From a virus (Duplodnaviria > Heunggongvirae > Uroviricota > Caudoviricetes): a DNA stretch of 4,557 nucleotides. The position numbers were made by a program, and so were the translations under genes. Below are positions 75 to 4,425 of the stretch, piece by piece. The notes under the pieces were generated by a model that saw only the letters and a list, made by a program, of their open reading frames with translations, searched no databases and was not told the DNA's origin. The stretch lies in IMG/VR virus record IMGVR_UViG_2531839232_000006, positions 1 to 4,557 of that record. One strand, given 5' to 3'. Within the stretch, counting starts at the first letter, position 1. Every line of letters starts with the position of its first letter.

Positions 75-489
75 GCATGAACACATCCGCATGGCGATGA
101 ATGCCTGGGCGCATCCGGACGGCGAAAAAGTACCGGCTGCGAAAATTACCAAAGCGTATTTCGAGCTGGGAATGACGTTCCCGGAACTGTATGACGACAG
201 CCATCCGGAAGCCATGGCTCGCAATACTCAGAAAATTTTCCGCTGGGTGGAGAAAGACACTCCTGATGCGGTTAAAAAAATTCAGGCGTTGTTACCAGCG
301 ATCGAAAAAGCGATGCCGCCTCCGCTGGTGGCCCGAATGCGCAGCCACAGTTCCGCTTATTTTCGGGAGTTGGTAGAGACGAAGGAACGGCTGGTGAAAG
401 ATATTGATGATTTCGTTGCATCAGCGATCGTTCTGTTCGATCAGATGAATCGTGGTGGCCCGGCAGGAAACACTCTGGCTGTGCATTAA
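64..489 (+). CDS. ydaT: YdaT-like prophage regulator (functional analogue of lambda CII), 141 aa
   Basis: ATG at 64 with GGAG at 53-56 (7-nt spacing); stop TAA at 487-489. The N-terminus MKIKHEHI… and the size match my recollection of the Rac/CP-933P YdaT family. Position immediately upstream of a replication module fits the cII slot of lambdoid phages. Confidence 0.75.
   Translation: MKIKHEHIRMAMNAWAHPDGEKVPAAKITKAYFELGMTFPELYDDSHPEAMARNTQKIFRWVEKDTPDAVKKIQALLPAIEKAMPPPLVARMRSHSSAYFRELVETKERLVKDIDDFVASAIVLFDQMNRGGPAGNTLAVH
324..331 (+). other. Chi octamer 5'-GCTGGTGG-3' (RecBCD hotspot motif) inside the ydaT-like gene
   Basis: Exact octamer read at 324-331 on the + strand; I found no reverse-complement copy (CCACCAGC) in the window. 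Activity depends on the host being E. coli-like. Confidence 0.5.
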
Positions 490-502
490 TTGGGTAATAA
501 AT

Positions 503-1012
503 ATGAGTAATGACAAAAAATTGACACTGAGCGTTTACGAAAACAGTCCGCACATCTGGCGTGGCGGTTTATCTGATGTGGAGCTGGCAGAGTGGTTGAT
601 ACATAAAGCTAATGCGCTGCTCTGGCGTTTGTCAGCCAGAGAACAGCGCAAGGAAACCAGAATAAAGCTGGCTGATGCAGAAGCGTGTGCCGGGCTTATT
701 GAGGATTATACAAATCTTGGTATTTCTTCAGCAGAGAGTGATCCCATTCAGCCTCTGAGCAGGGAGTCAATCCAGCACGCTGGTTGTATGGCACATCTTG
801 TAACTGCTCGTCAACATGAGGTGGGTATTGGATCACTTCCGGCGGGATATTCGCTGATTCCAGAGCTGGTTGAAGCAAGAAAATCAGTTCAGAAAAAGAG
901 AGATGACGCACTTCAATTATTGAGAGAGCACTATGGCGCGATACCAGAATGCGAACAGCGTCGATACCCTGAAGGTTATGAATGGATGCAGTCTCTTTTT
1001 GAAGTTCGCTAA
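503..1012 (+). CDS. Hypothetical protein, 169 aa, function unknown; extra gene between the cII-like gene and the replication initiator
   Basis: ATG at 503, 13 nt after the ydaT stop, with only a weak GGGT upstream; stop TAA at 1010-1012. Co-directional with the operon and E. coli-like codon choice, but several rare AGA/ATA/AGG codons. No motif I recognise. The six-frame ORF begins at GTG 452, which would overlap ydaT by 38 nt and is less likely. Confidence 0.55.
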   Translation: MSNDKKLTLSVYENSPHIWRGGLSDVELAEWLIHKANALLWRLSAREQRKETRIKLADAEACAGLIEDYTNLGISSAESDPIQPLSRESIQHAGCMAHLVTARQHEVGIGSLPAGYSLIPELVEARKSVQKKRDDALQLLREHYGAIPECEQRRYPEGYEWMQSLFEVR

Positions 1013-1016
1013 TCAA
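999..1016. promoter_or_regulatory. Degenerate second copy of the operator-like inverted repeat (TTGAAG-ttcgct-AATCAA, 10 of 12 arm positions, same 6-bp spacer)
   Basis: Read directly at 999-1016, overlapping the stop codon of the 169-aa gene at the start of the 217-bp gap before rep. Only a partial match, so it could be chance. Confidence 0.2.
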
Positions 1017-1229
1017 TATGTCGAGACGAAGGTATGTTTCGGCGCGCAGCCAGGCTCTGTAATCCGGGAGCATTTCGGGGCTGTTACACCAGCGGTTTGT
1101 TGCTGCAACATTTAATACATGAGCCTGATAAAGGCTTTTCAAAAAATACATGTCGAACCTCCTCTGGTTCTGTCGATTGGGAACCACAGATTATATCCGG
1201 AGGAAGGTTCGGCACCAGATGAGGTAGCC

Positions 1230-2321
1230 ATGCGTGATTACGCAAAAGTTTCTCCGCGATTCTGGCTGGGAGAAACGGGGAGAGAACTTAGAAAGGCGGG
1301 TGCAGAAGCGCAAGTTGTTGCTTTTTACCTGATGACATCCCCTCACGCAAATATGCTGGGTTTGTATTACCTGCCAGTTTTATACCTTGCTCATGAAACC
1401 GGGCTTGGTCTGGAAGGGGCTTCAAAGGGGCTTAAAAGGGCTGTTGAAGCTGGTTTTTGTAGCTATGACCATGATGCAGAGATGGTCTGGGTCCATGAAA
1501 TGGCAGCCTGGCAGGTTGGGGAAACGTTGAAGCCTGGCGATAACCGTTGTGCAGGTGTCAGGAATGAGTATGCATCATTACCTGAAAACGCTTTTCTGTC
1601 AGTGTTTTACGACAGATATAAAACGGATTTCCATCTGGATGTGAGGCGGAATAATAGCCGAAATTCGGTAAGGGGCTTCGAAGGGGCTTTTAAGGGGCTT
1701 CGAAGCCAAGAACAGGAACAGGAGCAGGAGAAAGAACAGGAACAGGACAAAAACACTATGGTTCATGGCAAAAAAAACACCACGAACCAGGCAGGGGATG
1801 TTCAGACCGTCAATCCTGGTCAGCCAGCAGGCACGACACCGGAAGCCGATTCGGGCGCTGTGCAGCAGGTGATGACCGCAGGGTCGGAGCAATCACACCA
1901 ACTGCAGCAGCCTGAAGCCGATTCCGCCATTCAGCGGGAAGCCGATCGGGTAGTCCCGGAAAGCACCGGGCAGTCTGTGGGACGAGTGGATTATCCGGAT
2001 GTGTTCGAACAGGTCTGGCGGGAATACCCGTTGCGTGCTGGGGCAAACCCGAAGAAATCCGCTTTCAGTGCCTGGAAGGCCAGATTGCGCGAGGGGGTGC
2101 CACCAGAGACCATGCTGGATGGTGTGAGGCGTTACGCGAGATACCTGGCGGCGACCGGGAAAGCGGGAACGGAATTTGTTCAGCGAGCGACGACGTTTTT
2201 TGGGCCGGACCGGAATTTTGAAAACCCCTGGTTGCTCCCGGTAAGCGGCACGAACAACCAGCGTTGTGTGAATCATATTTCTGAACCGGATACCGAAATT
2301 CCGCCGGGATTCAGGGGGTGA
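1230..2321 (+). CDS. Phage replication initiation protein: N-terminal DNA-binding domain, acidic QE-rich linker, and DnaT-like (primosomal protein I-like) C-terminal domain; 363 aa
   Basis: ATG at 1230 preceded by GAGG at 1221-1224 (5-nt spacing); stop TGA at 2319-2321. The C-terminal tail …ISEPDTEIPPGFRG closely matches the C-terminus of E. coli DnaT as I remember it (…SEPDSQIPPGFRG). It is followed 6 nt later by a DnaC homologue, mirroring the host dnaT-dnaC operon. The alternative start at ATG 1119 has no SD and adds 37 rare-codon-rich residues. Confidence 0.85.
   Translation: MRDYAKVSPRFWLGETGRELRKAGAEAQVVAFYLMTSPHANMLGLYYLPVLYLAHETGLGLEGASKGLKRAVEAGFCSYDHDAEMVWVHEMAAWQVGETLKPGDNRCAGVRNEYASLPENAFLSVFYDRYKTDFHLDVRRNNSRNSVRGFEGAFKGLRSQEQEQEQEKEQEQDKNTMVHGKKNTTNQAGDVQTVNPGQPAGTTPEADSGAVQQVMTAGSEQSHQLQQPEADSAIQREADRVVPESTGQSVGRVDYPDVFEQVWREYPLRAGANPKKSAFSAWKARLREGVPPETMLDGVRRYARYLAATGKAGTEFVQRATTFFGPDRNFENPWLLPVSGTNNQRCVNHISEPDTEIPPGFRG
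1414..1443. repeat. Iteron-like direct repeat cluster A: AAGGGGCTT at 1414-1422 and 1425-1433, plus imperfect AAGGGCTG at 1436-1443, 11-bp period
   Basis: Read directly. The 11-bp period makes the copies fall in all three codon phases of rep (encoding EGA, KGL, KRA), which argues the repeat is selected at the DNA level. Confidence 0.55.
1670..1707. repeat. Iteron-like direct repeat cluster B: three perfect AAGGGGCTT copies at 1670, 1681 and 1692 (exact 11-bp period), ending in the 12-bp palindrome GGCTTCGAAGCC (1696-1707)
   Basis: Read directly. The copies again occupy three different codon phases (encoding RGF, EGA, KGL). Five perfect copies of a 9-mer in 4.5 kb is far beyond chance. Confidence 0.6.
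1708..1786. other. Purine/A-rich tract next to iteron cluster B: (GAACAG)-type hexamer repeats and an A8 run (1770-1777); candidate DNA-unwinding element of an origin embedded in rep
   Basis: The 14-mer GAACAGGAACAGGA occurs at 1710-1723 and 1734-1747, and the top strand is almost all purine, encoding the QEQEQEQEKEQEQDKN linker. The iterons-then-A-rich layout inside the initiator gene parallels lambda ori inside gene O. Confidence 0.35.
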
Positions 2322-2327
2322 TGTGGC

Positions 2328-3074
2328 ATGAAAAACATTGCGGCAGCCGGGGTTCTTGAACGTATTCGCAGACTTGCACCACAGGCGTCGGTTCCACCGT
2401 ACCGGACGGTGGAGGAGTGGCGGGAATGGCAACTTGCTGAAGGACGAAAACGCAGCGAGGAGATTAACCGCCAGAATCACCAGTTGCGGGTGGAAAAAAT
2501 CCTGAATCGTTCGGGCATCCAGCCTCTGCACAGCAAATGCTCGTTTGCGAATTATCAGGTGCAGAACGACGGGCAAAAATACGCGCTGAGCCAGGCCAAA
2601 TCCATAGCTGACGAACTGATGACCGGGTGCACGAATTTTGTGTTCAGCGGTAAAACCGGCACCGGGAAAAATCACCTTGCAGCGGCGATGGGTAACCGGC
2701 TGATGGCGAAGGGGCGCAGCGTGATTATCGTCACCGTGTCTGATGTCATGAGCGTGTTGCATGACAGCTACGACAACGGCAAATCCGGGGAAAAATTTTT
2801 ACAGGAGCTTTGCAGTGTTGATTTGCTGGTCCTGGATGAAATAGGCGTTCAGCGGGAGACGAAAAACGAGCAGGTGGTATTACACCAGATAATTGATCGC
2901 CGGACAGCATCACTGTGCAGTGTCGGGATGTTAACAAACCTGAATCATGCCGCAATGAGTACACTTCTTGGTGAGAGGATTATGGACCGCATGACCATGA
3001 ACGGTGGTCGATGGGTGACGTTTAACTGGGATAGCTGGCGTCCAAATGTCAGCAATATGAGGGTTGTGAAGTAA
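2328..3074 (+). CDS. dnaC: DnaC-like replicative helicase loader (AAA+ ATPase), 248 aa; prophage paralogue of host DnaC
   Basis: ATG at 2328 with a G-rich SD at 2314-2320; stop TAA at 3072-3074. Walker A GKTGTGKN is encoded at 2649-2672 and Walker B LLVLDEIG is present (about 2822-2845). Sequence is near-colinear with E. coli DnaC across the NRSGI…CSF…NY and FNWDSWR regions. Confidence 0.95.
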   Translation: MKNIAAAGVLERIRRLAPQASVPPYRTVEEWREWQLAEGRKRSEEINRQNHQLRVEKILNRSGIQPLHSKCSFANYQVQNDGQKYALSQAKSIADELMTGCTNFVFSGKTGTGKNHLAAAMGNRLMAKGRSVIIVTVSDVMSVLHDSYDNGKSGEKFLQELCSVDLLVLDEIGVQRETKNEQVVLHQIIDRRTASLCSVGMLTNLNHAAMSTLLGERIMDRMTMNGGRWVTFNWDSWRPNVSNMRVVK

Positions 3075-3095: not shown

Positions 3096-3812
3096 ATGGA
3101 AACCGTATCTGACGCACTGAAAGCACTGAAAAAAGCCTCTTCACATGTGGTGGCAGCTCGCCTTGGAATTAGTCGTGAAGAGGCTGTCAACGAACTGTGG
3201 AAACTGAAACGCCGTGGAGAAGCGGATAACAAGGGGGCGATATGGTGGCTGACTCAGGCTGGTGAAAGTGAACCGGTGTCACCGGTACCGAAAGTGACGG
3301 CGCAAATGCTGACAGAGGCGATTGAACAACATGGCCCACAAACGGCGGATGAACTGGCATTGATGTTCGGAATTACCTCCCGCCGGGCGAATTCATCGCT
3401 GGCAATGGCAATCAGCAAAGGGTGTCTGATTCGCGTGAATCAGGATGGTAAATTTCGTTACTGCATACCGGGCGTTGATTTACCGGCAGAGCCGAAAGCA
3501 GCATCCGTAGCTGAAACGGAGGGTAAAGCCCTTCCTCAGCCAGCTGGTGTTGCGTTACCAGTCCAGGAAACGGCTGCACAGGAAGAAATTAAAACAGAAG
3601 CGGTGGAGGACATTGTGAAGTTGCAGCAATCGTTCACTGAAGCGAAAGCAGATGACCTGATTCTACCATCGCTGCATGTGGCTAACCGCGAGCTGCGCCG
3701 GGCGAAAAGTAATGTTCAGAAGTGGGAGCGAGTCTGTGCTGCGCTACGGGAACTGAACAAACACAGGGATATTCTCCGGGATATTACCGCCACCAGAGAG
3801 CAGCAGCGGTGA
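3096..3812 (+). CDS. Hypothetical protein, 238 aa: two tandem winged-helix-like repeats followed by a Pro/Ala-rich linker and a C-terminal coiled-coil-like region; possibly a DUF1627-type prophage protein
   Basis: ATG at 3096 with GGAGG at 3083-3087 (8-nt spacing); stop TGA at 3810-3812. Internal repeat by eye: residues about 3-56 and 68-126 share the pattern L..A…(A/E)L(A)..(G)I(S/T)..A…L…G. The family name is from memory and unverified. Confidence 0.75.
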
Positions 3813-4126
3813 GTGGCTGGAAGAAGTGGCGCTGGGCTGAAATCCTGATACTCCGGCAGTGTGCGGGAACGATGAGAGTCGAAAGCATCGGTTATCTGAT
3901 TGGCCGTAGTGAGTCAGCCGTCAGGACGAAAGCGCGGGAACTGGGTATCAGCATGATGTTACGGGGTGATTATCACCAGTCAGCCAAATGTTCACAGCGT
4001 GATATTGAGCTGGCGTGGCAACTGCATCAGCGTGGTGTACCCCGACGGGAAATTGCCGAAAAGTTTGGGATGAAGTTGGGCGCAGTGAATAACTACGTTT
4101 ATTTCGACAGGAGGGTTCAGGAGTGA
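3809..4126 (+). CDS. Small putative DNA-binding protein, about 105 aa, with two HTH-like repeats (the first resembles the GcrA N-terminal / sigma-70 region-4 type of HTH)
   Basis: GTG at 3809-3811 overlaps the upstream stop TGA at 3810-3812 (GTGA junction); stop TGA at 4124-4126. Repeat 1 is [41 protein letters not shown] and repeat 2 is [32 protein letters not shown]. The alternative ATG at 3872 would cut off the first helix, and the six-frame start at 3722 lies inside the upstream gene. Confidence 0.6.
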
Positions 4127-4425
4127 GGGTGAGGGTTTATATCGCCGGTCCGATGACGGGATATGAAAATTTTAACCGCGAGGCATTTCACAAAACGGAA
4201 GAGGTGCTGAAACGGGAAGGGCATACCGTTTTAAACCCGGCAGTACTTCCGGACGGGCTGACTCAGCCACACTACATGGATATTTGCATGGCAATGCTCC
4301 GTTGCGTGGATGCGGTTTACATGCTGAAAGGCTGGCAGCAGTCGGCAGGTGCAGGGGCTGAGCTGGCACTGGAGGAGAAACCGGGCCATGCGGTGATTTT
4401 TCAGGAGGTGGGCAGTGAATATTGA
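4123..4425 (+). CDS. DUF4406-like small protein (nucleoside 2-deoxyribosyltransferase-like fold), 100 aa
   Basis: GTG at 4123-4125 overlaps the upstream stop TGA at 4124-4126 (second GTGA junction), with AGGAGG at 4109-4114 (8-nt spacing); stop TGA at 4423-4425. The N-terminal VYIAGPMTG motif and the later GW..S.GA..E block are what I recognise as characteristic of the DUF4406 / NDT-like superfamily. An alternative GTG start lies at 4129. Confidence 0.8.
   Translation: MRVRVYIAGPMTGYENFNREAFHKTEEVLKREGHTVLNPAVLPDGLTQPHYMDICMAMLRCVDAVYMLKGWQQSAGAGAELALEEKPGHAVIFQEVGSEY

What the first reader, a model, noticed from the sequence alone, without database searches (positions are those of the whole stretch)
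1414..1707. Two clusters of 11-bp-phased AAGGGGCTT iterons inside the rep gene: candidate origin of replication
Five perfect and one or two imperfect copies of AAGGGGCTT occur as two triplets (1414/1425/1436 and 1670/1681/1692) about 255 bp apart, each with 11-bp (about one helical turn) spacing. Because 11 is not a multiple of 3, the same 9-mer is translated in all three codon phases, so the repetition is maintained at the DNA level rather than for the protein. Cluster B ends in the palindrome GGCTTCGAAGCC. This matches the lambdoid design in which the origin iterons lie inside the initiator gene and are bound by the initiator's N-terminal domain. The iteron sequence differs from lambda's 19-bp iterons, so this would be a distinct origin specificity.
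Basis: partly seen in the sequence, partly recalled or inferred. Interest (0 to 1): 0.6.

Follow-up and report, generated by a model that had tools for sequence, protein, structure and literature searches.

The report
Replication origin inside prophage initiator gene
Short 11-base-spaced DNA repeats inside the replication-initiator gene of an E. coli O157:H7 prophage are kept by selection on the DNA itself and most likely mark the phage's replication origin; the same 9-base site sits at the same two places in related genes from many bacterial phyla.

Summary
AAGGGGCTT occurs exactly five times, at 1414, 1425, 1670, 1681 and 1692 (0.03 expected by chance), as two 11-bp-period arrays inside the initiator gene rep (1230-2321), upstream of a DnaC-like loader gene. 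The origin interpretation is supported by comparison, not by experiment.

- **Conservation:** In 64 homologous genes (34-67% GC, Enterobacterales to Planctomycetes) the site AAG-SSS-CTT recurs at the same two gene offsets. It is 42-fold enriched over flanking DNA, and 98 of 112 close neighbour pairs are 11 bp apart.
- **Selection on the DNA:** Synonymous codons are fixed to the site (GGG 53/54, CTT 52/61, GAA 51/51). The centre switches between GGG and CCC, turning EGASKGL into EAPSKPL. So the DNA is what is conserved, not the peptide.
- **Co-variation:** E. coli alleles that share the C-terminal half of Rep but have a different N-domain carry different repeats (TGTCACG; GATGTTCAA in K-12 ydaU) in the same two-array layout. 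The exchanged cassette ends right after the repeat tract.
- **Binding domain:** The N-domain models as a winged helix.
- **Array B:** It always abuts a half-site AAGCC and a (CAR-GAR)n tract.

This is the known design of an origin inside the initiator gene (lambda, P22, L, SPP1), here in an undescribed, widespread family with split arrays. I rate it a new variant of a known kind, of moderate interest.

The parts
1230..2321 (+). rep: 363-aa replication initiator (replisome organizer) with an N-terminal winged-helix domain, a low-complexity linker and a C-terminal DnaT-like partner domain
   Evidence: PGAP annotates a CDS at these bounds. Full-length match to phrog_1701, E 9e-149. No Pfam family at E up to 5 for the N-domain. 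The C-terminal tail gives a weak DnaT hit. The downstream gene is a DnaC-like loader.
1230..1640 (+). Coding region of the N-terminal winged-helix domain (about aa 1-137), the presumed iteron-binding domain
1414..1444 (.). Iteron array A: AAGGGGCTT at 1414 and 1425, plus a degenerate third copy at 1436 (AAGGGCT). Period 11 bp. Encodes E62-L68 in the predicted recognition helix H3.
   Evidence: In the family, sites sit at gene offsets +182/185 and +193/196 in most of 64 genes. Synonymous codons are fixed to the site.
1445..1669 (.). Spacer of about 225 bp between the arrays. Contains the locally lowest G+C (0.37-0.42 at 1560-1640). An alternative candidate for the unwinding region or the apex of a loop.
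   Evidence: Composition profile. Family-wide G+C dip of about -0.10 at 60-105 bp upstream of the tract. The dip may simply reflect the amino-acid composition.
1670..1700 (.). Iteron array B: three perfect AAGGGGCTT copies at 1670, 1681 and 1692. Period 11 bp. Encodes part of a predicted disordered linker (aa 147-158).
   Evidence: Relatives have 1-8 copies at +411 to +550, with centre GGG, CCC, GCC or GGC. pLDDT is below 50 for aa 141-175.
1703..1707 (.). Conserved half-site AAGCC joining array B to the tract. With the last iteron it forms the palindrome GGCTTCGAAGCC (1696-1707).
   Evidence: 'AAGC' lies directly before the tract in 63 of 65 genes. The Ser codon is AGC in 59/59 in-frame cases, against a background share of 0.21.
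1707..1748 (.). (CAR-GAR)n hexanucleotide tract, seven units here, encoding QEQEQEQEKEQEQD. Candidate strand-opening or loading tract, or simply a linker. Its length is polymorphic.
   Evidence: TRF period 6 at 1710-1747. Present after array B in about 60 of 64 genes, 18-96 nt long, and read in a different frame in 6. AT-skew peak of +0.82 at 1700-1759. 18-nt indel in E. coli strain 7784.
488..1749 (.). Exchangeable specificity cassette: N-domain, both iteron arrays and the tract, plus an extra upstream ORF. In other E. coli prophages and phages a different N-domain with different repeats replaces it.
   Evidence: blastn against L004, L005 and L006: homology stops at window 487 and resumes at 1750. 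Klebsiella L081 matches only window 1223-1741. Megablast hits start at query 651, which is window 1750.
2328..3074 (+). DnaC-like AAA+ helicase loader, the presumed partner recruited by the Rep C-terminal domain
   Evidence: Pfam IstB_IS21 and Bac_DnaA. NCBIfam PRK12377 at 509 bits and DnaC at 299 bits. phrog_50.

Best explanation
The two AAGGGGCTT arrays are iterons: double-stranded DNA sites bound by the winged-helix N-terminal domain of the Rep protein whose gene contains them. Together with the adjacent half-site AAGCC and the (CAR-GAR)n / A-rich tract they form the origin of theta replication of this Rac/Qin-like lambdoid prophage.

Proposed mechanism, with the status of each step:
1. Rep molecules bind the 9-bp pseudo-palindromic sites AAG-SSS-CTT, which are spaced 11 bp apart and so lie on one face of the helix. 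That the sites are selected as DNA and that they co-vary with the N-domain is shown. Binding itself is inferred.
2. The arrays are 256 bp apart, and Rep-Rep contacts bring them into one looped or wrapped nucleoprotein complex, like the lambda O-some (inferred).
3. Under negative supercoiling, torsional stress opens DNA next to array B. The preferred location is the purine-rich tract at 1707-1790; the lower-G+C spacer at 1560-1660 is the alternative (inferred, location uncertain).
4. The Rep C-terminal domain, which is DnaT-like and ends in PD..IPPGFRG, recruits the phage DnaC-like loader (2328-3074) carrying host DnaB onto the opened strands (inferred from gene order and family annotation).

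Because the sites overlap coding sequence, they dictate the peptide EGASKGL in helix 3 and in the linker.
For: - **More than chance, and periodic.** There are 5 exact copies against 0.03 expected, and TRF reports period-11 arrays.
- **Deep positional conservation.** Across 64 homologous genes from many phyla, exact AAGSSSCTT occurs at 4.29/kb inside +150..+800 and at 0.10/kb in 346 kb of flanks, a 42-fold difference. 98 of 112 close neighbour pairs are 11 bp apart, and 54 of 64 genes have sites in both zones.
- **Selection acts on DNA, not protein.** Codon choice is fixed to the site: E62 GAA 51/51 (background 0.50), G63 GGG 53/54 (0.24), A64 GCT 45/57 (0.17), K66 AAG 54/54 (0.66), L68 CTT 52/61 (0.12). 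Meanwhile the N-domains are a median 59% identical in nucleotides elsewhere and span 34-67% G+C.
- **The peptide changes while the site stays.** The centre of the site alternates GGG/CCC, changing the peptide from EGASKGL to EAPSKPL. Genes without array A have ordinary, variable H3 peptides.
- **A double-stranded DNA site, not an RNA signal.** It works in either orientation.
- **Co-variation with the N-domain.** Alleles that share the C-half at about 92% nucleotide identity but have another N-domain carry TGTCACG at 10-bp spacing, again in two arrays 260-270 bp apart followed by a codon-repeat tract. K-12 Rac ydaU (DUF1376) has GATGTTCAA repeats in its gene. The swapped cassette ends exactly after the tract.
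- **The N-domain is the only constant neighbour.** No other window protein recurs across the 73 loci, except the DnaC-like protein in 12 of them.
- **The N-domain models as a winged helix**.
- **Initiator context.** A DnaC-like or DnaB-like gene lies immediately downstream in 9 of 10 relatives tested, and the same module is present in the Stx1 phage 75/02.
- **Precedent.** Lambda O, P22 gp18, L gp18 (six 11-bp repeats) and SPP1 G38P/oriL all carry their iterons inside the initiator gene (PMC8022706, PMC7466680, PMC5737612). Rac has an active origin, oriJ (PMC3945230).
Against: - There is no experimental evidence here for Rep binding or for origin activity.
- No clearly AT-rich unwinding element adjoins the iterons. 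The tract is 40-45% G+C here and up to 67% G+C (GAGCAG) in high-G+C hosts.
- In frame 0 the tract is fully explained by a (Gln-Glu)n linker, because CAR and GAR exhaust the synonyms. Its role as DNA therefore rests only on 6 out-of-frame cases and on the cassette boundary.
- No DnaA box is present.
- The structure model has only moderate confidence: mean pLDDT 61, from 26 sequences.
- The p-values treat related sequences as independent.
- Genes that lack the EGASKGL helix still keep AAGCCCCTT in array B, so which residues read the site is unknown.
- Plasmid and literature searches gave no independent functional support.
Confidence: 0.75

Rival explanations
1. The sites are bound by Rep, but mainly for regulation rather than initiation. 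Possible roles are autoregulation or a roadblock to transcription of rep-dnaC, copy-number control by handcuffing the two arrays, or exclusion of related phages. The true initiation site would lie elsewhere.
For: The sites are selected as DNA and are linked to the N-domain. The arrays are split, and array A is far from any unwinding tract. No strong AT-rich DUE adjoins the iterons. Plasmid iterons are known to act in both initiation and control (general knowledge; Chattoraj 2000, cited in PMC2647930).
Against: Array B is invariably coupled to the half-site and tract at the domain boundary, as in ori-lambda. No other repeat cluster in the window or the loci could serve as the origin. The cassette is exchanged as one unit with the N-domain. 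The two roles are not mutually exclusive.
Confidence: 0.12
2. The repeats are a by-product of a repeated peptide motif (EGASKGL / EGAFKGL) needed by the protein, with no function as DNA.
For: The peptide E-G-A-x-K-G-L is nearly invariant in close homologues and occurs twice in the protein.
Against: The 11-bp period puts the 9-mer in all three frames. Synonymous codons are fixed far beyond background. The GGG/CCC switch changes the peptide to EAPSKPL while keeping the DNA site class. Array B lies in a predicted disordered linker. Genes lacking array A have unrelated H3 peptides. By contrast, a true peptide repeat in the same gene (GAAGCCGAT x3) is spaced in multiples of 3 and stays in one frame.
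Confidence: 0.02
3. The sites are recognised by a conserved host factor or another phage protein rather than by Rep. Examples are a nucleoid protein or recombinase, or an mRNA signal such as Shine-Dalgarno-like AAGGGG ribosome pausing.
For: AAGGGG resembles a Shine-Dalgarno core. The site is conserved across very different hosts, as a universal factor might require.
Against: An RNA signal is excluded because the CCC-centred form is equally common. None of the neighbouring window proteins co-occurs with the motif in the 73 loci. The motif is at background level outside these genes. Repeats change when the N-domain changes in the same host. No Rfam family matches.
Confidence: 0.06
4. The repeats are recombination-prone or slippage-generated sequence that marks a mosaic junction, with no binding function.
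For: The cassette boundary lies just after the tract. Tract length is polymorphic among E. coli strains.
Against: Slippage products would not stay at 9-bp identity, 11-bp phase and two fixed positions across phyla at saturated synonymous divergence. Array A is 300 bp from the junction.
Confidence: 0.03

Closest known systems
Bacteriophage lambda ori-lambda within gene O (and the Stx-phage variants with six iterons)
   Same: The origin lies inside the initiator gene. The iterons sit at the boundary between an N-terminal DNA-binding domain and a C-terminal partner-recruiting domain and are followed by a strand-asymmetric tract. Extra iterons add residues to the protein. The specificity cassette is exchangeable among lambdoid phages (PMC7466680, PMC8022706).
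   Different: Lambda has four to six contiguous iterons of about 19 bp, each an inverted repeat, and a truly AT-rich region. Here the sites are 9 bp in 11-bp units, split into two arrays 256 bp apart, and one array lies inside the DNA-binding-domain coding region. The tract is not AT-rich. Rep matches no Pfam family at all, so not the lambda O N-domain family (Phage_rep_O, named from memory). The partner is a DnaC-like AAA+ protein, not lambda P.
P22 gene 18 and phage L gene 18 origins
   Same: Iterons lie inside the initiator coding region. Phage L has six imprecise 11-bp repeats (TGTCCAACGGA) predicted as its origin, so the unit is equally short (PMC8022706). Many relatives of this Rep are followed by a DnaB-like helicase, as P22 18 is followed by 12.
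   Different: The repeat sequence differs. No sequence similarity to those proteins was tested or found here. P22 and L repeats are described as a single array.
Bacillus phage SPP1 oriL embedded in gene 38 (replisome organizer G38P)
   Same: A non-AAA+ replisome organizer binds repeats (AB boxes) inside its own gene, next to an unwinding element, and then recruits a loader and a helicase. For SPP1 this is shown in vitro (PMC5737612). Some members of this family carry the Phg_2220_C domain that PMC5737612 assigns to G38P (P0118).
   Different: The window's Rep has no Phage_rep_org_N or Phg_2220_C hit. The repeat sequence and host range differ. SPP1 has an AT-rich DUE.
Rac prophage oriJ / ydaU-ydaV module of E. 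coli K-12
   Same: The gene order is the same (cro-like, ydaT, rep, DnaC-like ydaV). ydaV is 78% identical in nucleotides to the window's loader gene. ydaU shares the C-terminal tail and carries its own in-gene repeats. Rac has an active origin (PMC3945230).
   Different: The YdaU N-domain is DUF1376 and its repeat is GATGTTCAA / TGTTCAAACA. I found no source in the library that places oriJ at the sequence level.
Iteron-type plasmid replicons (RepA, pi, TrfA with winged-helix domains)
   Different: Plasmid iterons are 17-22 bp, lie outside rep, and are bound by two tandem WH domains. Here a single WH domain faces an 11-bp unit inside the gene. No plasmid context was found.
DnaA-trio / basal unwinding system of bacterial oriC (Richardson et al. 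2016, from memory)
   Same: Initiator boxes are followed directly by a short G+C element and a trinucleotide-periodic repeat. Here that is AAGCC followed by (CAR-GAR)n.
   Different: The initiator here has no AAA+ domain. The resemblance is a lead only and was not tested.

Membership tests
Origin embedded in the phage initiator gene (lambda / P22 / SPP1 design) | Repeated initiator-binding sites located inside the initiator's own coding sequence | tested here: met
   Five exact and one degenerate 9-mers lie inside CDS 1230-2321.
Origin embedded in the phage initiator gene (lambda / P22 / SPP1 design) | Repeats maintained as DNA, independently of the encoded protein | tested here: met
   Synonymous codons are fixed. 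All three frames are used. The GGG/CCC switch changes the peptide.
Origin embedded in the phage initiator gene (lambda / P22 / SPP1 design) | Repeat sequence co-varies with the initiator's DNA-binding domain (specificity cassette) | tested here: met
   Three N-domain types carry three different repeats. The cassette boundaries are at window 487/488 and 1749/1750.
Origin embedded in the phage initiator gene (lambda / P22 / SPP1 design) | AT-rich DNA-unwinding element adjacent to the repeats | tested here: inconclusive
   An A-rich, purine-skewed tract at 1707-1790 has 40-45% G+C. In high-G+C relatives the tract is GAGCAG. A modest G+C dip lies upstream of array B.
Origin embedded in the phage initiator gene (lambda / P22 / SPP1 design) | Initiator binds the repeats and the fragment supports initiator-dependent replication | not testable with these tools
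   Needs EMSA or footprinting and a trans-complementation replication assay.
Lambda O protein family | N-terminal domain homologous to lambda O, with iterons of about 19 bp that are inverted repeats | tested here: not met
   No Pfam hit at E up to 5 for aa 1-175. The unit is 11 bp with a 9-bp site. PGAP and submitter labels of 'replication protein O' on relatives are names only.
Phage replisome organizer (Phage_rep_org_N, PF09681; SPP1 G38P-like) | Match to PF09681 in the N-terminal domain | tested here: not met
   The window's N-domain has no hit. The Tritos-type allele hits weakly (E 0.017, below cutoff). Profile comparison between the two N-domain types gives probability 0.1%.
Initiator plus helicase-loader replication module (IL type; Weigel and Seitz 2006, from memory; the related ILH type is cited in PMC9144972) | Initiator gene immediately followed by a DnaC-like AAA+ loader gene in the early-right operon | tested here: met
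   rep is at 1230-2321 and the DnaC-like gene at 2328-3074. The pair lies downstream of a cI-like, cro-like and ydaT gene set.
Winged-helix DNA-binding domain | H1-beta-H2-H3-beta-hairpin topology with structural matches to known wHTH domains | tested here: met
Plasmid iteron replicon (RepA/pi type) | Iterons of 17-22 bp outside rep, an initiator with two WH domains, and a plasmid context | tested here: not met
   The unit is 11 bp and lies inside the gene. A single WH domain is modelled. The plasmid hits are prophage-bearing, chromosome-sized or very large records.

The most novel reading that the evidence does not exclude
This is a previously unrecognised class of replication origin that spans several phyla. 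A non-AAA+ winged-helix initiator binds 9-bp pseudo-palindromic sites (AAG-SSS-CTT) in two looped arrays. It opens DNA not at an AT-rich element but at a sequence-specified, trinucleotide-periodic tract, AAGCC-(CAR-GAR)n. That tract would be functionally analogous to the DnaA-trio unwinding system, and its sequence also doubles as the protein's Gln-Glu linker.
Probability: 0.15. Interest if true: 0.75.

Novelty: new variant of a known kind. Interest (0 to 1): 0.5.

Why it matters
- **Origin prediction.** It gives a concrete, testable origin for an uncharacterised but very common replication module. The module has more than 1190 protein clusters, including Stx1-converting phages such as 75/02, O157:H7 prophages, and Klebsiella, Acinetobacter and Burkholderiales prophages.
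- **Annotation signature.** AAGSSSCTT pairs at 11 bp, followed by AAGCC-(CARGAR)n, could annotate origins and initiators across thousands of prophages that are now labelled 'hypothetical' or 'DNA-binding protein'.
- **Overlapping codes.** It is a clean natural example of overlapping codes. A protein-binding DNA site fixes synonymous codons and even dictates the residues (EGASKGL or EAPSKPL) of the protein whose gene contains the site.
- **Unusual stability.** It shows an iteron specificity that has stayed constant across phyla, whereas lambdoid iterons are usually regarded as fast-diverging specificity determinants.

Tried and rejected
- **Same-allele comparison.** Three E. coli rep alleles at 97-100% identity are identical throughout the N-half, so they give no test.
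- **Literature search for the 9-mers.** It returned only unrelated primer or oligo hits. Searches on oriJ, iterons, replisome organizer and Eru types found precedents for the design but nothing on this family or motif.
- **Plasmid collection.** I looked for an autonomous replicon using this Rep. The hits are prophage-bearing fragments, chromosome-sized or very large records, so they are uninformative.
- **Viral-contig scan with the Tritos-type N-domain.** All 80 loci are 100% identical, so there is no divergence to test conservation of TGTCACG.
- **Homology between the three N-domain types.** None was detected by hhalign. Only the C-terminal part aligns.
- **PDB sequence search.** It gave only a weak DnaT (6aep) match in the C-part.
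- **DnaA box.** None above chance.
- **Rfam.** No match.
- **Promoter and terminator scan.** Counts are at chance level.
- **Compensation idea, rejected.** I considered that genes lacking array A make up for it with a larger array B. The six such genes have 0, 1, 1, 2, 5 and 6 sites, so the idea is not supported.
- **'Evolutionary lock' idea, rejected.** I considered that the iteron stays frozen because it encodes the recognition helix that reads it. This is weakened because genes with unrelated H3 peptides still keep AAGCCCCTT in array B.
- **Family-wide AT-rich DUE.** Only a modest G+C dip lies upstream of array B, and amino-acid composition could explain it.
Full report
**Where the window comes from and what it encodes**

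Window 1100-2330 is 100% identical to a prophage in E. coli O157:H7 chromosomes, for example NZ_AP018488.1. The annotated context there is a Rac/Qin-like lambdoid early region. It runs: exonuclease, dicB, ydfB, relBE, a cI-like repressor, a cro-like regulator, ydaT, an ECs1072-family ORF, a 363-aa 'hypothetical protein', an 'ATP-binding protein', then DUF1627 and DUF977 genes.

In window coordinates:
- ydaT is at 64-489.
- rep is at 1230-2321. It matches phrog_1701 full length at E 9e-149 and has no Pfam family.
- A DnaC-like AAA+ loader is at 2328-3074 (IstB_IS21 and Bac_DnaA; NCBIfam PRK12377 509 bits, DnaC 299 bits).
- DUF1627 is at 3096-3812 and DUF4406 at 4123-4425.

AAGGGGCTT occurs exactly five times, at 1414, 1425, 1670, 1681 and 1692, all on the + strand. 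Dinucleotide-preserving shuffles give 0.03 copies on average. Tandem Repeats Finder independently reports period-11 arrays at 1414-1440 and 1670-1705, and a period-6 array (GAACAG) at 1710-1747. The third copy of array A, at 1436, lacks one G. Counted from the start codon at 1230, the copies begin at codon positions 2, 1, 3 and 3, 2, 1, so the 9-mer is read in all three frames. The palindrome GGCTTCGAAGCC lies at 1696-1707.

**Homologues provide a decisive test**

E. coli alleles of the same type are identical in the N-half and say nothing. The N-terminal 175 residues, however, have more than 1190 homologous protein clusters. A scan of one genome per species returned 73 loci. They come from Enterobacterales, Proteus, Acinetobacter, Burkholderiales, Xanthomonadales and alpha-proteobacteria, and from Acidobacteriota, Planctomycetota and Bacteroidota MAGs, at 30-80% amino-acid identity.

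In nearly all of them the 9-mer, with at most one mismatch, recurs at the same two gene offsets: about +182/185 and +193/196, and about +411 to +550. Counting exact AAG-SSS-CTT gives 4.29 sites per kb inside +150..+800, against 0.10 per kb in 346 kb of flanking DNA. That is a 42-fold difference. Close neighbour sites are 11 bp apart in 98 of 112 pairs and 12 bp apart in 9. Of 64 genes, 54 have sites in both zones.

**Selection acts on the DNA**

Outside the iteron codons, the 63 other N-domain sequences are a median 59% identical in nucleotides to the window and range from 34 to 67% G+C. In the six iteron codons the median identity is 94%. Among sequences that keep the amino acid, the codon is the iteron codon far more often than the same codon is used elsewhere in the same genes:

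| Codon | Iteron codon used | Background share |
|---|---|---|
| E62 GAA | 51/51 | 0.50 |
| G63 GGG | 53/54 | 0.24 |
| A64 GCT | 45/57 | 0.17 |
| K66 AAG | 54/54 | 0.66 |
| G67 GGG | 37/47 | 0.22 |
| L68 CTT | 52/61 | 0.12 |

The binomial p-values overstate significance because the sequences are related, but synonymous sites elsewhere are saturated.

The central triplet is almost always G/C only: GGG 90, CCC 56, GCC 22 and GGC 9 of 197 sites. In most non-enteric genes, and also in the Shigella Stx1 phage 75/02, array B is in the CCC form. That turns the peptide EGASKGL into EAPSKPL. Genes that lack array A have ordinary, variable helix-3 peptides.

It also excludes an mRNA-level signal. For contrast, a true peptide repeat in the same gene, GAAGCCGAT x3 at 1842, 1914 and 1938, is spaced by multiples of 3 and stays in one frame.

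**The repeats go with the N-domain**

In the phage and E. coli collections, most hits to rep cover only window 1750-2320, at about 92% identity. Those alleles (phage Tritos; strains C325 and cS100a) have an unrelated N-terminal 160 residues (hhalign probability 0.1%). They also have a different repeat, TGTCACG at 10-bp spacing. It again forms two arrays 260-270 bp apart, and the second array is followed directly by a codon-repeat tract, (ACAGATAAAGAT)n.

K-12 Rac ydaU is a third type, with a DUF1376 N-domain. It has GATGTTCAA / TGTTCAAACA repeats confined to its N-half.

The exchanged cassette is sharply bounded. Homology to the Tritos-type loci ends at window 487, the end of ydaT, and resumes at 1750, just past the hexamer tract. 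A Klebsiella relative matches only window 1223-1741. None of the other proteins encoded in the window recurs in the 73 loci, apart from the DnaC-like protein in 12 of them.

**The protein and its context**

So array A (aa 62-68) is encoded within the predicted recognition helix, and array B (aa 147-158) within the linker.

In ten diverse relatives, the gene immediately downstream is a DnaB-like helicase in six, a DnaC-like AAA+ protein in three, and a DUF6475 protein in one. This matches the initiator position in lambda-like and P22-like modules. The C-terminal domains differ with the partner. The tail PD..IPPGFRG is shared with YdaU and weakly with DnaT.

**The junction next to array B**

Array B is followed by a half-site and a hexamer tract with striking regularity. 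'AAGC' directly precedes the tract in 63 of 65 genes. The Ser codon there is AGC in 59 of 59 in-frame cases, against a background share of 0.21.

The tract (CAR-GAR)n is 18-96 nt long and encodes (Gln-Glu)n in 54 genes. In 6 genes it is read in another frame, as (Ala-Gly)n, (Thr-Gly)n or Arg/Thr-rich runs.

A caution applies here. CAR and GAR exhaust the synonyms of Gln and Glu, so in frame 0 the tract shows no constraint on the DNA beyond the peptide. Its role as DNA rests on the out-of-frame cases and on the cassette boundary.

In the window the tract and the following A-rich stretch have the strongest AT skew of the region (+0.82) and 40-45% G+C. They are flanked by two hairpin-forming inverted repeats. 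No DnaA box is present. A family-wide G+C dip of about 0.10 lies 60-105 bp upstream of the tract, but it may reflect amino-acid composition. The site of strand opening therefore remains uncertain.

**Comparison with what is known**

The design, with iterons inside the initiator gene next to an unwinding tract, is classical. Lambda has four iterons of about 19 bp plus an AT-rich tract in the middle of O, and Stx phages have six (PMC7466680). P22 gene 18 has four repeats of about 20 bp, and phage L gene 18 has six imprecise 11-bp repeats (PMC8022706). SPP1 oriL, with its AB boxes and DUE, is embedded in gene 38 and has been reconstituted in vitro (PMC5737612). Rac carries an active origin, oriJ (PMC3945230).

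What differs here:
- a winged-helix N-domain family with no Pfam model;
- a 9-bp pseudo-palindromic site in an 11-bp unit;
- two arrays about 255 bp apart, one inside the DNA-binding-domain coding region;
- an adjoining tract that is not AT-rich;
- conservation of the same site across phyla.

I found no paper describing this motif or family. The Stx1 phage 75/02, the 'Eru4' representative in PMC8951638, carries the module. That paper does not discuss origins.

**Verdict**

Rep binding and origin firing remain inferred.

My confidence in each step:
- the sites are DNA-level protein-binding sites: about 0.95;
- the Rep N-domain is the binder: about 0.8;
- the region is the replication origin: about 0.7-0.75.

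This is a new variant of a known kind, of moderate interest.

Noticed in passing
window 503-1012 (+) and 696-1151 (-): Two long ORFs overlap on opposite strands between ydaT and rep, and each matches a family. The + ORF (169 aa) matches phrog_8304 full length at E 4e-120. The - ORF (151 aa) matches NCBIfam 'ECs1072 family phage-associated protein' at 105.7 bits, above its cutoff of 70, and is the one PGAP annotates. At most one is likely real. This 740-bp segment is absent from the Tritos-type loci.
   Followed up: partly
window 1842-1850, 1914-1922, 1938-1946: GAAGCCGAT occurs three times (0.01 expected by chance), always in the same codon phase (Glu-Ala-Asp) and spaced by 72 and 24 nt. It is a peptide-level repeat (PEADS / READR) in the Rep linker. 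E. coli strain 03_3469 has a 24-nt insertion that adds another copy.
   Followed up: partly
window 1707-1748; L002 (E. coli 7784): The length of the (CAR-GAR)n tract is polymorphic among otherwise identical E. coli alleles (18-nt insertion in strain 7784). Across the family it ranges from 18 to 96 nt, like a microsatellite.
   Followed up: partly
window 1759-1789: An inverted repeat, TGGTTCATGG...CCACGAACCA, surrounds an A8 run just right of the cassette boundary. The scan scores it as terminator-like on the - strand, and it folds in the single-strand DNA prediction (z -4.1 for 1660-1800). A similar, longer inverted repeat is present in the Tritos-type allele. Its position recalls the palindrome to the right of the AT-rich region in ori-lambda (from memory).
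   Followed up: partly
L004 2654-2692 and 2913-2962 (phage Tritos rep); also L005 and L006: A different initiator N-domain carries TGTCACG repeats at 10-bp spacing. They form two arrays about 260 bp apart, plus one inverted copy at 2717, followed by (ACAGATAAAGAT)n. This is a second candidate in-gene origin with the same architecture.
   Followed up: partly
L080 2266-2579 (E. coli K-12 Rac ydaU, NC_000913.3 about 1421265-1421578): ydaU (DUF1376) contains six GATGTTCAA-like copies (10 in the 6-kb locus against 2.3 expected) and the inverted pair TGTTCAAACA / TGTTTGAACA. This may be the sequence-level location of the Rac origin oriJ.
   Followed up: partly
C-terminus of Rep, window 2285-2318; L080 ydaU C-terminus: The C-terminal tail S-x-PD-x-x-IP-x-GFRG is shared by Rep proteins with three unrelated N-domains. 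It also matches the last 24 residues of the NCBIfam DnaT model (E 0.002). It is probably the contact with the DnaC-like loader or with DnaB.
   Followed up: no
L012, L015, L020, L021 (Acinetobacter), offsets -37 to -15 from the rep start: Acinetobacter homologues carry two or three extra AAGGGGCTT / AAGCCCCTT copies, 11 bp apart, just upstream of the rep start codon. This looks like a third array, which could be an autoregulatory operator.
   Followed up: no
L001 9028-11464 (NZ_AP018488.1): In strain PV15-279 the DUF977 gene downstream of the replication module is split by an IS66-family (ISEc8) insertion. The window carries an intact ORF there (3722-4126).
   Followed up: no
H60, NZ_CP124741.1 (E. 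coli O157:H7 EDL933 'plasmid', 286,775 bp): A record in the plasmid collection holds a 100% identical copy of the Rep N-domain. Its size and content suggest a chromosomal or prophage segment labelled as a plasmid.
   Followed up: no
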